The notes below the pieces were generated by a model. The model ran no database searches. It was not told where the DNA came from and was given only the letters and a program-made list of their open reading frames with translations. A program made the translations under genes and the position numbers. A stretch of 18,485 nucleotides of DNA from a virus (taxonomy: Duplodnaviria; Heunggongvirae; Uroviricota; Caudoviricetes): IMG/VR virus record IMGVR_UViG_2540341028_000007; one strand, 5' to 3'. Below, one piece after another: positions 1,243 through 2,883 of this stretch (the stretch's first letter is position 1; each line of letters begins with the position of its first letter).

Positions 1243-1455
1243 TATGCGAAGCTATTTAGATTCAGTTTGAATCTCAGCCCTGACATTCATTCTTTACCGA
1301 CGTTCCATTAGCCCAAATCTGAGTATATAACCTCAATTCAACTGACTAAATTTAACACAATATCAATGACAAATGTCTTTACCATTGGTACATACAATTG
1401 CAAAATCACCATCTCTAAGCAATAAGACTACGCATATTAAAGTGAGTTATATTAA

Positions 1456-2604
1456 ATGTTTGAAATTGATAGCCTATTATTAATAACATCCGTGATAATC
1501 TTGTCATTATTGGCTGTAAAATTATTTGATGAAATTTCTCCTATACAACTTGTCGATCATGGAAGAAATAATCAGATAGATGGAATGAGAGGATTCTTAG
1601 CCATCTTCGTACTTATTCATCATGCCGCTATTTGGCATGGCTACTTATTAACCGGGGTATGGAAAACTCCGTCATCAAACTTATTAACAAATTTAGGCCA
1701 AGTTGGTGTCTCATTCTTTTTCATGATCACCGGATATCTATTTTTTTCGAAGATTCGCTCAAGTGACCAGGATTGGGTAAGACTATATATATCGAGATTT
1801 CTGCGATTAACTCCTATGTTTATTGTAAGTTTATGTTTAGTTCTTCTTGTTATAGGTTTTAAATCAAGATGGAGCGTACATGTCTCCCCTGCCTCTCTTA
1901 CTGTGTCACTCATGAGATGGGCACCATTCACCGCATTAGGGATGCCAAATATTAACGGTGTTAAGGACTCATTCACTATCAATGCAGCTGTAACATGGAC
2001 CCTCGTTTACGAATGGTTTTTTTATTTTTCATTACCGGTTATAGCTGCACTCTTCAAAAGAAGAGTCAGCATCCACATGATTATAATAAGTGTTTTAGTT
2101 CTAGTGATTTTCTTATGTTACCCATCAAAAAAAATACATGTTATTTCATTTTTATTTGGACTGTTAGCCTCTTATTCAAATAATTATGTACATAGAGTTG
2201 CTAAAGCTAAAATAACGCCTATTATGATAATTGCATTACTAAGTTACGAAATGATATATTTTCCTACAACCTACGCTCCACTCCCTCTCATAATTTGCGG
2301 TGTTTGCTTTATACTTATCGCATCAGGCTGTGATTTTTATGGTATATTGAGATTAAATTTAACAAGAAAACTTGGTGAAACAACATATAGTATTTATCTT
2401 TTACATGGAGTATTCCTTTATTGTGTAATGACATGGGTCATCCCTAGTAATTATTCTAATTATTTTTTTATTATGTTAATAAGCATTACTGCTTTTTGCG
2501 TCACACTTTTATCATGCATAACATTTAAATTAATTGAACTACCTTTCATTAATATAACAAAACAAACCGCTATGAAAATCAGGGGCATAATAAAAAACAC
2601 TTAG
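1456..2604 (+). CDS. Integral-membrane acyltransferase, acyltransferase-3 family (Oac/OafA-like); candidate O-antigen or other surface-polysaccharide O-acetyltransferase
   Basis: 382-aa very hydrophobic ORF with the N-terminal motif IDGMRGFLAIFVLIHH and the block GVSFFFMITGYLF, both typical of acyltransferase family 3. ATG at 1456 is preceded by agtgag. Strongly AT-rich compared with flanking phage genes. Transcribed convergently to the tail operon. Confidence 0.8.
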   Translation: MFEIDSLLLITSVIILSLLAVKLFDEISPIQLVDHGRNNQIDGMRGFLAIFVLIHHAAIWHGYLLTGVWKTPSSNLLTNLGQVGVSFFFMITGYLFFSKIRSSDQDWVRLYISRFLRLTPMFIVSLCLVLLVIGFKSRWSVHVSPASLTVSLMRWAPFTALGMPNINGVKDSFTINAAVTWTLVYEWFFYFSLPVIAALFKRRVSIHMIIISVLVLVIFLCYPSKKIHVISFLFGLLASYSNNYVHRVAKAKITPIMIIALLSYEMIYFPTTYAPLPLIICGVCFILIASGCDFYGILRLNLTRKLGETTYSIYLLHGVFLYCVMTWVIPSNYSNYFFIMLISITAFCVTLLSCITFKLIELPFINITKQTAMKIRGIIKNT

Positions 2605-2648
2605 TAATCAATTGTCACCTAATCAAGAGGTGGTTTATAGATAACAAT

Positions 2649-2684
2649 AAAGAACCTTCGCCATTTCCGGAGGTTCTTTTATAT
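2649..2684 (+). terminator. Putative rho-independent terminator downstream of the acyltransferase gene (possibly bidirectional)
   Basis: Inverted repeat aaagaaccttcg / cggaggttcttt (2649-2660 / 2668-2679) forms a ~12-bp stem with one G-U pair and a 7-nt loop, followed by a T-run (tttt at 2677-2680 then atat). It lies 45 nt after the stop at 2604. Confidence 0.45.
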
Positions 2685-2883
2685 CCTTATGGTAAATATA
2701 AATTATAAATATTATTTTTATGGTGTTCCACTATGAACAGGGAAGCTAAATAATGATTACAAAAATATGTAACTTCAGGCAATGCAGGGGCTATGTTATT
2801 GCCTTAACACCATAATGAGTAATATTGTGTCCCGAGGATAAAAGTACTGTTAATTCTTATTGATGCTTCAATAGCACTCAAAA

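What the first reader, a model, noticed from the sequence alone, without database searches (positions are those of the whole stretch)
1243..2883. AT-rich acyltransferase-3 moron at the distal end of the tail module, intact while the prophage itself has decayed
ORF 1456-2604 encodes a 382-aa polytopic membrane protein with acyltransferase-3 hallmarks (IDGMRGFLAIFVLIHH; GVSFFFMITGYLF). Sampled 60-nt lines are about 28-30% GC, against roughly 55% in the adjacent phage genes. It is convergent to the tail operon and has its own terminator hairpin. It sits just beyond tail fibre/Tfa, where temperate phages commonly carry receptor-modifying lysogenic-conversion genes such as O-antigen acetyltransferases. 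It is the only intact non-structural gene in the block even though the capsid and sheath genes are inactivated, which fits selection for host benefit (serotype conversion or superinfection exclusion). Its exact substrate and family branch cannot be determined from the sequence alone.
Basis: partly seen in the sequence, partly recalled or inferred. Interest (0 to 1): 0.6.

Follow-up and report, generated by a model that had tools for sequence, protein, structure and literature searches.

The report
Known Shigella O-antigen acetyltransferase gene oacC

Summary
ORF 1456-2604 (+) encodes a 382-aa acyltransferase-3 membrane protein (Pfam E=8e-33). It lies in a 32.6% GC island, against 55.7% GC in the phage genes. 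It is convergent with Tfa and the tail fibre, and a hairpin terminator sits at 2649-2680. The prophage is decayed: the sheath gene has a K143-to-TAG nonsense codon, and the capsid gene is cut by IS629.

The gene is oacC of Shigella flexneri serotype 6 (Knirel et al. 2014). Nine of the ten published primers and recombineering arms match exactly; the tenth is not in the window, as expected if it anneals upstream of the window start. The published amplicon sizes (350, 1450, 3850 bp) and deletion limits (gene bases 217-815) are reproduced. A second group's knock-out arms also match. The protein is 72% identical to OacB, and all seven OacB-critical residues are conserved. The published context (IS629, IS630, oacC, SfII-like tail genes) is the same.

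Published deletion, complementation and NMR show that oacC 3/4-O-acetylates rhamnose III, which gives O-factor 9.

One new side observation: an apparently complete, about 99.7% identical oacC prophage sits at thrW in E. coli O147. That serogroup has the same O-antigen backbone as serotype 6.

The parts
1456..2604 (+). oacC coding sequence (382 aa plus stop). It is an AT3-only O-antigen O-acetyltransferase C that 3/4-O-acetylates RhaIII and gives O-factor 9.
   Evidence: ORF. Pfam PF01757 E=8e-33 and PHROG 3333 O-acetyltransferase E=1e-61. Published oacC primers and arms match exactly with the published product sizes. 72% identity to Sf101 OacB. The R-X10-H, FFxITG and RXXR motifs and all 7 OacB-critical residues are conserved. 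Eleven hydrophobic segments fit the positive-inside rule with N-terminus out and C-terminus in.
1243..1455 (+). AT-rich 5' non-coding leader of oacC (32.9% GC). It carries an SD-like AGTGAG at 1441-1446. The promoter is not mapped.
   Evidence: Composition. No sigma-70-like site of 9/12 or better on the + strand in 1243-1455. 100% identical in E. coli JCKP02. No conserved block with the oacB upstream region. The published complementing clone starts at 1297.
2649..2680 (+). Intrinsic-terminator-like hairpin 45 nt after the oacC stop codon: 12-bp stem, 7-nt loop, U-rich tail. It also folds on the minus strand, so it may be bidirectional.
   Evidence: Fold energy -15.6 kcal/mol, z -4.6, 0 of 200 shuffles as stable. 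The minus strand gives -14.9 kcal/mol, z -2.6. Not flagged by the pattern scan.
2605..2883 (.). AT-rich spacer (31.5% GC) between the convergent oacC and tfa genes.
   Evidence: No ORF of 50 aa or more. No Rfam family.
637..1260 (+). IS630 remnant: the 3' part of the transposase gene, with internal stops. Its right end is only approximately placed at 1243-1260. It lies immediately upstream of oacC.
   Evidence: DDE_3 domain hit. Annotated as IS630-family transposase at the same place in E. coli JCKP02 and C9. Published as 'IS630 immediately upstream of oacC'. C9 has a 47-bp deletion at window 1211-1257.
1..636 (-). IS629 (IS3 family), partial because it is cut by the window edge. It is inserted into IS630 and includes orfA and the frameshift pseudoknot.
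   Evidence: HTH_Tnp_1 hit. Rfam ALIL pseudoknot at 185-301. 100% identical to the IS629 copy in L006, L008 and L011, but in the opposite orientation. Published as 'IS629 and IS630' upstream of oacC.
2884..4277 (-). Tail-fibre assembly protein (2884-3495) and tail fibre (3495-4277). The fibre tip and tfa are unlike those of SfII; their best phage match is the P2-like Escherichia phage pro483.
   Evidence: Pfam Caudo_TAP and Collar. SfII/SfI homology starts only at 3974. pro483 matches at 95.8% over 2909-3968.
4281..11942 (-). Intact SfII/SfI/SfV-type baseplate, DNA-circularisation, tape-measure, tail-assembly and tail-tube genes.
   Evidence: ORFs have the same lengths as in the E. coli prophage. 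97.3-97.5% identity to SfII and SfI. 97.8-100% to JCKP02 per gene, with only the tail-tube gene (97.8%) below 99.5%.
11942..13438 (-). Tail sheath pseudogene: AAG(Lys143) changed to TAG at 13010-13012.
13422..15572 (-). DUF2635 gene, tail terminator, neck and head-closure genes, head-tail connector and a small ORF, all with open reading frames.
   Evidence: ORFs matched to annotated genes in JCKP02 and SfII.
15621..16255 (-). 3' fragment of the major capsid gene. Only the C-terminal 203 codons remain, truncated by IS629.
   Evidence: Pfam Phage_capsid profile positions 86-280 only. SfII homology ends at 16253-16255. The IS629 end lies at 16256.
16256..17565 (+). Complete IS629 copy (orfA 108 aa, orfB 296 aa). 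It replaces the head, terminase and early half of the prophage.
17566..18485 (+). Host DNA: a PTS EIIC gene fragment. It marks the outside of the prophage remnant.
   Evidence: Pfam PTS_EIIC profile positions 212-317 only.

Best explanation
**Identity.** The ORF is oacC, the O-antigen O-acetyltransferase C gene of Shigella flexneri serotype 6. It lies at the att-proximal end of a decayed SfII/SfV-family serotype-converting prophage.

**Protein.** The product is a stand-alone AT3 inner-membrane enzyme with about 11 transmembrane segments, N-terminus periplasmic and C-terminus cytoplasmic.

**Mechanism, inferred from the AT3 family.**
- Cytoplasmic acetyl-CoA enters a central pore of the 10-helix AT3 core.
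- Its 3'-phosphate is held by R45 and by R114/R117 of the RXXR motif.
- The thioester is presented to H56 of the R-X10-H motif.
- The acetyl group is passed to O-3 (major) or O-4 (minor) of rhamnose III of the O-unit on the periplasmic face. The long periplasmic loop 135-182, which carries S144, is probably involved.

**Phenotype, shown in the literature for this gene.** The cell gains O-factor 9. Deleting gene bases 217-815 abolishes the acetylation, and a plasmid carrying 1297-2746 restores it.

**Transcription.** The gene has its own terminator and is transcribed independently of, and convergent to, the defective tail operon. It therefore works although the phage is dead.
For: **Sequence identity with published oacC.**
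- All primers from Knirel et al. 2014 that can lie in the window match exactly.
- They give the published sizes: 350 bp (1560-1909), 1450 bp (1297-2746) and 3850 bp (1886-5735).
- The 72-nt and 57-nt recombineering arms match at 1600-1671 and 2271-2327. These bracket exactly the published deleted gene bases 217-815.
- The 50-nt knock-out arms of a second laboratory match at 1456-1505 and 2519-2568.
- The exact protein is on record under Shigella flexneri names on 309 contigs.

**Relationship to OacB.**
- 72% identity to OacB, as published.
- The seven OacB residues shown by mutagenesis to be essential are conserved as R45, H56, W69, F96, R114, R117 and S144.

**Family membership.**
- Pfam AT3 E=8e-33.
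- R-X10-H and RXXR motifs as defined for AT3 proteins.
- Eleven hydrophobic segments with 20 K/R in the odd (cytoplasmic) loops against 7 in the even loops.

**Context as published.**
- IS629 and IS630 lie upstream, and tail genes about 97% identical in DNA to SfII lie downstream (the paper reports >95% identity at the protein level).
- Three 4.65-4.73 Mb chromosomes are 99.94% identical over window 612-12605.

**Function, from papers.**
- Deletion, complementation, serology and NMR.
- An independent knock-out with NMR.
- Present in 77/77 serotype 6 strains.
Against: - I could not retrieve the reference record (SGF_00264) to show 100% identity over the full length. Identity is shown directly only for about 430 nt of published oligonucleotides, and otherwise through amplicon sizes and database names.
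- No promoter was found by the consensus scan upstream of the ORF, so expression from this exact locus is inferred, not shown.
- The acetyl-CoA pore mechanism comes from modelling of OafB and from other AT3 proteins. How AT3-only enzymes complete the transfer without an SGNH domain is an open question.
- The organism of the window is inferred rather than given.
Confidence: 0.96

Rival explanations
1. The protein is an AT3 acyltransferase that acts on a non-LPS substrate such as peptidoglycan, capsule, enterobacterial common antigen or a small molecule, and only happens to lie next to phage genes.
For: The AT3 family is functionally diverse. NCBIfam has no specific model for this protein. No solved structure matches by sequence.
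Against: The sequence coincides with the gene whose deletion removes RhaIII O-acetylation and whose plasmid copy restores it, as measured by NMR. It has no SGNH domain, unlike the peptidoglycan enzyme OatA. It is 72% identical to OacB, with which it is functionally interchangeable.
Confidence: 0.01
2. The ORF is intact but is a silent relic in this genome. IS630 and IS629 insertion upstream would have removed its promoter, and the gene would persist only because decay has not yet reached it. That would be hitch-hiking with a recently inactivated prophage rather than selection.
For: No consensus sigma-70 promoter in 1243-1455. IS elements lie 200 bp upstream. About fifteen neighbouring tail genes are also still intact, and the whole 635-11586 block is at least 98.7% identical per gene (about 99.7% overall) to a complete E. 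coli prophage. Decay is therefore recent, and intactness alone does not prove selection.
Against: The same IS630-oacC junction is present in the strains shown experimentally to be acetylated. All 77 serotype 6 isolates were oacC-positive and O-factor 9-positive. The 213-bp leader is 100% conserved in the E. coli prophage. An AT-rich leader may hold a non-consensus promoter.
Confidence: 0.03

Closest known systems
oacC (OacC) of Shigella flexneri serotype 6; SGF_00264 in CDC 796-83 and SFCCH060_3012 in CCH060; Knirel et al. 2014, BMC Microbiol 14:266
   Same: The gene length is compatible. All published oligonucleotides that fall in the window match exactly. Amplicon sizes and deletion coordinates are reproduced. 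Identity to OacB is 72%. The flanks are the same: IS629 and IS630 upstream and an SfII-like tail module downstream. The exact protein is recorded under S. flexneri names.
   Different: Nothing detectable in the gene. In this window the upstream IS629 is in the opposite orientation to that in three otherwise 99.94% identical chromosomes.
OacB of S. flexneri serotypes 1a, 1b, 2a, 5a and Y, and of phage Sf101
   Same: 72% amino-acid identity and the same AT3-only architecture. All seven essential residues and all three motifs are shared. It performs the same reaction (3/4-O-acetylation of RhaIII) and is experimentally interchangeable with OacC. In Sf101 it also sits between int and the tail(spike) gene, convergent to the latter.
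   Different: OacB has 2 extra N-terminal residues and a longer C-terminus. It is carried by a P22-like podophage or a transposon-like element rather than an SfII-like myovirus. The upstream regions share no conserved promoter block.
OacD (SfII_25) of phage SfII, and Oac/OacA of phage Sf6
   Same: Both are AT3-family O-antigen acetyltransferases of serotype-converting phages. oacD occupies the same slot in SfII: immediately beyond tfa, convergent, with its own terminator.
   Different: OacC has no significant pairwise similarity to OacD (BLASTP E=0.045). Sf6 oac was not hit by tblastn at E of 1e-5 or better. The acceptors differ: GlcNAc O-6 for OacD and RhaI O-2 for Oac.
OafA/OafB of Salmonella (AT3-SGNH O-antigen acetyltransferases)
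   Same: They share the AT3 core with R-X10-H and RXXR motifs lining a pore proposed to admit acetyl-CoA. OafB also acetylates an O-antigen rhamnose.
   Different: OacC has no fused periplasmic SGNH domain. Its final transfer step must therefore be done by the AT3 domain itself or by an unknown partner.

Membership tests
oacC gene of S. flexneri serotype 6 | Nucleotide identity with the published gene (SGF_00264) | tested here: met
   Nine of ten published oligonucleotides match exactly: 19-25-nt primers and 72- and 57-nt arms, at positions giving 350, 1450 and 3850 bp and deletion of gene bases 217-815, as published. The tenth (oacC-4R) anneals upstream of the window. Two 50-nt arms from a second paper also match. 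Full-length comparison with the reference record was not possible.
oacC gene of S. flexneri serotype 6 | 72% protein identity to OacB | tested here: met
   72% in a MAFFT alignment and 72.2% by tblastn against Sf101 OacB. A later paper states 97%; my alignment supports 72%.
oacC gene of S. flexneri serotype 6 | Genomic context: IS629 and IS630 upstream, SfII-like phage tail genes immediately downstream | tested here: met
oacC gene of S. flexneri serotype 6 | Confers 3/4-O-acetylation of RhaIII (O-factor 9) | not testable with these tools
   Known only from published deletion, complementation and NMR.
Acyltransferase-3 (PF01757), AT3-only architecture | Profile match above the curated threshold across the domain | tested here: met
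   114.3 bits against a cutoff of 31. Residues 39-351 cover profile positions 2-324 of 326.
Acyltransferase-3 (PF01757), AT3-only architecture | R-X10-H motif in the first core helix, FFxI(S/T)G motif, and RXXR on the cytoplasmic face | tested here: met
   R45-x10-H56, F87-FFMITG-93 and R114-FL-R117.
Acyltransferase-3 (PF01757), AT3-only architecture | Polytopic membrane protein with a 10-helix core (plus one extra helix) and no SGNH domain | tested here: met
   Eleven hydrophobic segments were found by a hydropathy scan, and K/R bias fits N-terminus out and C-terminus in. This agrees with the published 11-TM consensus for OacB. The protein ends 27 residues after the last segment, and no second Pfam domain was found. 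This is only a hydropathy heuristic; no dedicated topology predictor or structure model was run.
SfI/SfII/SfIV/SfV/SfX serotype-converting phage family (prophage carrying the gene) | Homologous Mu-like tail and HK97-like head structural module | tested here: met
   97.3-97.5% DNA identity to SfII and SfI over 3974-16253.
SfI/SfII/SfIV/SfV/SfX serotype-converting phage family (prophage carrying the gene) | O-antigen modification genes located between tfa and attP/int, with integration at thrW | tested here: inconclusive
   The window has lost the att and int ends to IS elements. In the roughly 99.7% identical E. coli JCKP02 prophage, int abuts tRNA-Thr next to proA. At the other end, oacC lies beyond tfa, with SfII attP/int-like DNA about 450-640 bp beyond IS630. 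SfII has oacD and gtrII in this slot.
OacD / OacA branches | Significant sequence similarity to OacD or Oac | tested here: not met
   OacD: BLASTP E=0.045 over 96 residues. Sf6 oac is not among the tblastn hits at 1e-5.

The most novel reading that the evidence does not exclude
**Claim.** The donor phage of oacC is still alive in E. coli O147, so oacC is not strictly specific to S. flexneri serotype 6.

**Evidence.**
- An apparently complete, roughly 36-kb SfII-like prophage sits at thrW in E. coli JCKP02. It runs from int through early, lysis, terminase, head and tail genes to tfa, oacC and IS630.
- Over 635-11586 each gene segment is at least 98.7% identical to the Shigella remnant (about 99.7% overall).
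- Two of the three oacC-positive complete E. coli genomes belong to the seven O147 genomes among 5426.
- O147 is the serogroup whose O-antigen is the serotype 6 backbone without the acetyl group.

**If the prophage is active.** Some O147 E. coli would display an O-antigen chemically identical to that of S. flexneri 6. The oacC phage would be a fifth type of conversion cassette in the SfII family, replacing gtrABC. oacC PCR would then cross-react as a serotype 6 marker.
Probability: 0.5. Interest if true: 0.3.

Novelty: already known. Interest (0 to 1): 0.1.

Why it matters
**Known significance.** O-acetylation of RhaIII creates O-factor 9 on S. flexneri serotype 6, one of the serotypes targeted by multivalent Shigella vaccines. 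The gene, its product, its phenotype and its prophage location were all published in 2014 and have since been used in vaccine work. In mice, the ΔoacC mutation did not change immunogenicity. Re-finding the gene adds no new biology. It does show that the first-stage reader can recognise a lysogenic-conversion moron from raw sequence.

**The one addition.** There is a link to complete prophages in E. coli O147. This bears on where serotype 6 acquired the gene and on how specific oacC is as a diagnostic marker.

Tried and rejected
- **NCBIfam.** No family hit.
- **PDB sequence search.** No chain at E of 1 or better, so there is no solved close relative.
- **Megablast of the island against phage genomes.** No match. 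Only tblastn found OacB of Sf101.
- **Promoter scan.** Nothing convincing upstream of the ORF.
- **Alignment of oacC and oacB upstream regions.** No conserved promoter block.
- **Terminator pattern scan.** It missed the hairpin that folding then confirmed.
- **ARAGORN on the JCKP02 junction next to IS630.** No tRNA fragment was detected. The intact tRNA-Thr is at the int end.
- **Inverted-repeat search for the IS630 ends.** It did not define the right end, so the left boundary of the island is only approximate.
- **Rfam.** Only the IS3-type ALIL frameshift element inside IS629.
- **Peptidoglycan or other-substrate AT3.** Considered and rejected, because the sequence coincides with the experimentally characterised gene.
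- **Membership of the OacD or OacA branches.** Considered and rejected.
- **Searches deliberately not run.** I did not run the 5.8-billion-protein homologue search, the representative-library HMM search, or AlphaFold with fold search. The identification did not depend on them.
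Full report

- The window has an ATG-initiated ORF at 1456-2604 on the + strand, encoding 382 aa.
- With the local base composition, a stop codon is expected every ~14 codons. The chance of 382 open codons is about 7e-13.
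- The span 1243-2883 is 32.6% GC. The ORF is 32.8% GC with GC3 at 27.7%, and 300-nt windows in its 3' half fall to 29%.
- The flanks are 50-53% GC (the IS elements on the left), 46% (tfa), 52% (tail fibre) and 55.7% (the rest of the phage block).
- The gene is convergent with the minus-strand tail operon. Its nearest neighbours carry the Caudo_TAP and Collar domains of a tail-fibre assembly protein and a tail fibre.
- A 12-bp hairpin with a 7-nt loop and a U-rich tail lies 45 nt after the stop codon, at 2649-2680. Its folding energy is -15.6 kcal/mol, z = -4.6. The pattern scanner did not flag it. It also folds on the other strand and may terminate both converging transcripts.

**2. Is the prophage decayed?** Yes, but only partly.

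- The sheath gene (11942-13438) has TAG at 13010-13012 where the closest intact relative has Lys143.
- The capsid gene retains only its last 203 codons. It is cut at 16255/16256 by a complete IS629 (16256-17565), beyond which lies a fragment of a host PTS EIIC gene. The portal, terminase, lysis, early and integrase regions are therefore gone.
- All baseplate, tape-measure, tube, neck and connector genes still have full-length reading frames.
- On the left, the island abuts an IS630 remnant (about 637-1260) that is itself interrupted by a second IS629 (1-636, minus strand). That copy includes its ALIL frameshift pseudoknot.

**3. What is the gene?**

*Family evidence.*
- Pfam gives Acyl_transf_3 at E=8e-33 over almost the whole profile.
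- PHROGs gives an O-acetyltransferase family at E=1e-61.
- tblastn against phage genomes finds one close relative: OacB of the S. flexneri phage Sf101, at 72% identity over 99% of the length.

*Match to the published gene.* Knirel et al. 2014 (PMC4206707) describe oacC of S. flexneri serotype 6. They report it as the OacB homologue with 72% identity, lying downstream of IS629 and IS630 and immediately followed by SfII-like tail genes. I tested this by in-silico PCR with their Table 3:
- oacC-1 primers anneal at 1560-1579 and 1891-1909, giving 350 bp (published 350).
- oacC-2 primers anneal at 1297-1321 and 2722-2746, giving 1450 bp (published 1450).
- oacC-3 primers anneal at 1886-1905 and 5716-5735, giving 3850 bp (published 3850).
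- The 72-nt and 57-nt gene-specific parts of the kan-oacC primers match at 1600-1671 and 2271-2327. These bracket gene bases 217-815, exactly the published deletion.
- Only oacC-4R is absent. This is expected, because it anneals upstream of the window.

*Further support.*
- The 50-nt knock-out arms of an independent study (PMC8144980) match at 1456-1505 and 2519-2568. This also confirms the start codon.
- The exact protein sequence is recorded under Shigella flexneri names on 309 contigs.
- Three 4.65-4.73 Mb chromosomes are 99.94% identical to the window over 612-12605.

I conclude that the feature is oacC and that the window most probably comes from an S. flexneri serotype 6 chromosome.

**4. 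How does it work?**

*Shown in the literature for this gene.*
- Replacing gene bases 217-815 abolishes 3/4-O-acetylation of RhaIII and O-factor 9 reactivity.
- The cloned 1450-bp fragment restores both.
- oacC and oacB complement each other.
- 77/77 serotype 6 isolates carry the gene.
- An independent knock-out confirmed the loss of about 73% 3-O-acetyl and 18% 4-O-acetyl by NMR.

*Shown here.*
- All seven residues found essential in OacB by alanine mutagenesis (R47, H58, W71, F98, R116, R119, S146; PMC8952252) are conserved as R45, H56, W69, F96, R114, R117 and S144.
- The AT3 signature motifs are present: R-X10-H (R45...H56), FFxITG (87-93) and RXXR (114-117).
- A hydropathy scan finds 11 hydrophobic segments. 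There are 20 Lys/Arg in the odd loops against 7 in the even loops, which fits N-terminus out and C-terminus in. A 48-residue periplasmic loop (135-182) carries S144. This agrees with the published OacB topology.
- There is no SGNH domain.

*Inferred from the AT3 family (PMC9558356, PMC9833829).*
- Acetyl-CoA enters a transient pore of the AT3 core from the cytoplasm.
- The arginines bind its 3'-phosphate.
- The invariant histidine sits next to the thioester.
- How AT3-only enzymes complete the last transfer is unresolved.

*Not established.* The promoter is unknown. No consensus sigma-70 site lies in 1243-1455, and there is no conserved block with the oacB leader.

**5. Position in the phage.**

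- The structural genes from 3974 to 16253 are 97.3-97.5% identical to SfII and SfI, and 96.8% identical to SfV as far as 15162.
- In SfII, the slot immediately beyond tfa holds oacD, which is convergent and has its own terminator. An IS and gtrII follow. oacC therefore occupies the classical serotype-conversion slot of this phage family.
- OacC and OacD are not detectably similar.
- The fibre tip and tfa (2884-3973) differ from those of SfII. Their best phage match is the P2-like phage pro483, at 95.8%. The receptor-binding tip and the receptor-modifying gene therefore form a mosaic distal block.

**6. Related loci in E. coli.**

- Only 3 of 5426 complete E. coli genomes carry the island.
- In strain JCKP02 the prophage appears complete. 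It starts at tRNA-Thr (thrW) next to proA and runs through int, early genes, lysis, terminase, portal, capsid, an intact sheath, tail, tfa, oacC and IS630. SfII attP/int-like DNA then follows before yagP' and paoD.
- Over 635-11586 each gene segment is 98.7-100% identical to the window (about 99.7% overall). There is one synonymous difference in oacC and none in its leader.
- JCKP02 carries O147-family wzx and wzy.
- The O147 wzx-wzy DNA occurs in only 7 of 5426 genomes. These include two of the three oacC carriers, JCKP02 and D217-5. By my own hypergeometric arithmetic on these counts, P is about 4e-6, ignoring clonal relatedness.
- The third carrier, C9, has a different rhamnose-type cluster with a truncated wzy, a truncated tail-fibre gene and a 98.8% oacC allele.
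- Knirel et al. state that the O147 O-antigen equals the serotype 6 O-antigen minus the RhaIII acetyl group. Their E. coli PCR panel did not include O147.
- No other paper in the searchable library mentions both oacC and O147.

These results suggest that the donor phage still circulates in O147 E. coli and that oacC is not absolutely specific to serotype 6. This is a modest addition and has not been tested experimentally.

**7. Verdict.**

- The selection argument is weaker than stated. Most neighbouring tail genes are also intact, and the remnant is nearly identical to a complete prophage, so decay is recent. The published 77/77 prevalence is the better argument for selection.
- Superinfection exclusion by oacC is plausible by analogy with Sf6 and Oac but untested.
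- Novelty: already known. Interest: low.

Noticed in passing
L001/L013 (E. coli JCKP02, NZ_CP195759.1 4503473-4539600); L015 24785-27260: An apparently complete, roughly 36-kb SfII-like oacC prophage sits at thrW in an E. coli O147 strain. Two of the three oacC-positive complete E. coli genomes are among the only seven O147 genomes of 5426. O147 shares the serotype 6 O-antigen backbone, so the donor phage may still be active there, and oacC is not strictly specific to serotype 6.
   Followed up: partly
window 1-636, compared with L006, L008 and L011 at 7870-9179: The IS629 copy inserted into IS630 upstream of oacC is in the opposite orientation in the window compared with three chromosomes that are otherwise 99.94% identical. 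The junction position is the same. A simple inversion between flanking IS copies would not produce this. It could be a second rearrangement or an assembly artefact.
   Followed up: partly
window 1-636 (-) and 16256-17565 (+): Two IS629 copies in inverted orientation bracket the whole remnant of oacC plus tail module (about 15.6 kb). The second copy joins the truncated capsid gene directly to a host PTS EIIC fragment. This implies an IS629-mediated deletion of the head and early half of the prophage together with adjacent host DNA.
   Followed up: partly
window 185-301 (-): Rfam ALIL pseudoknot (116 bits), the programmed -1 frameshift element of IS3-family insertion sequences, lies inside the IS629 orfA/orfB overlap.
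   Followed up: yes
window 2884-3973: The tail-fibre C-terminal part and tfa are not homologous to those of SfII, SfI or SfV. They are 95.8% identical to the P2-like Escherichia phage pro483 and about 89% identical to Klebsiella, Salmonella and Citrobacter phages. This points to a mosaic host-range cassette adjacent to the receptor-modifying gene.
   Followed up: partly
window 1211-1257, compared with L002 (E. coli C9): E. coli C9 lacks 47 bp spanning the end of the IS630 transposase ORF. Its IS630 ORF is otherwise full length, whereas the copies in JCKP02 and in the window are frameshifted or truncated. IS630 sits next to oacC in every carrier examined, so the association predates the transfer between E. 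coli and Shigella.
   Followed up: partly
PMC8952252, Results: That paper states 97% identity between OacC and OacB. My alignment and the original description both give 72%, so the 97% figure appears to be an error.
   Followed up: yes
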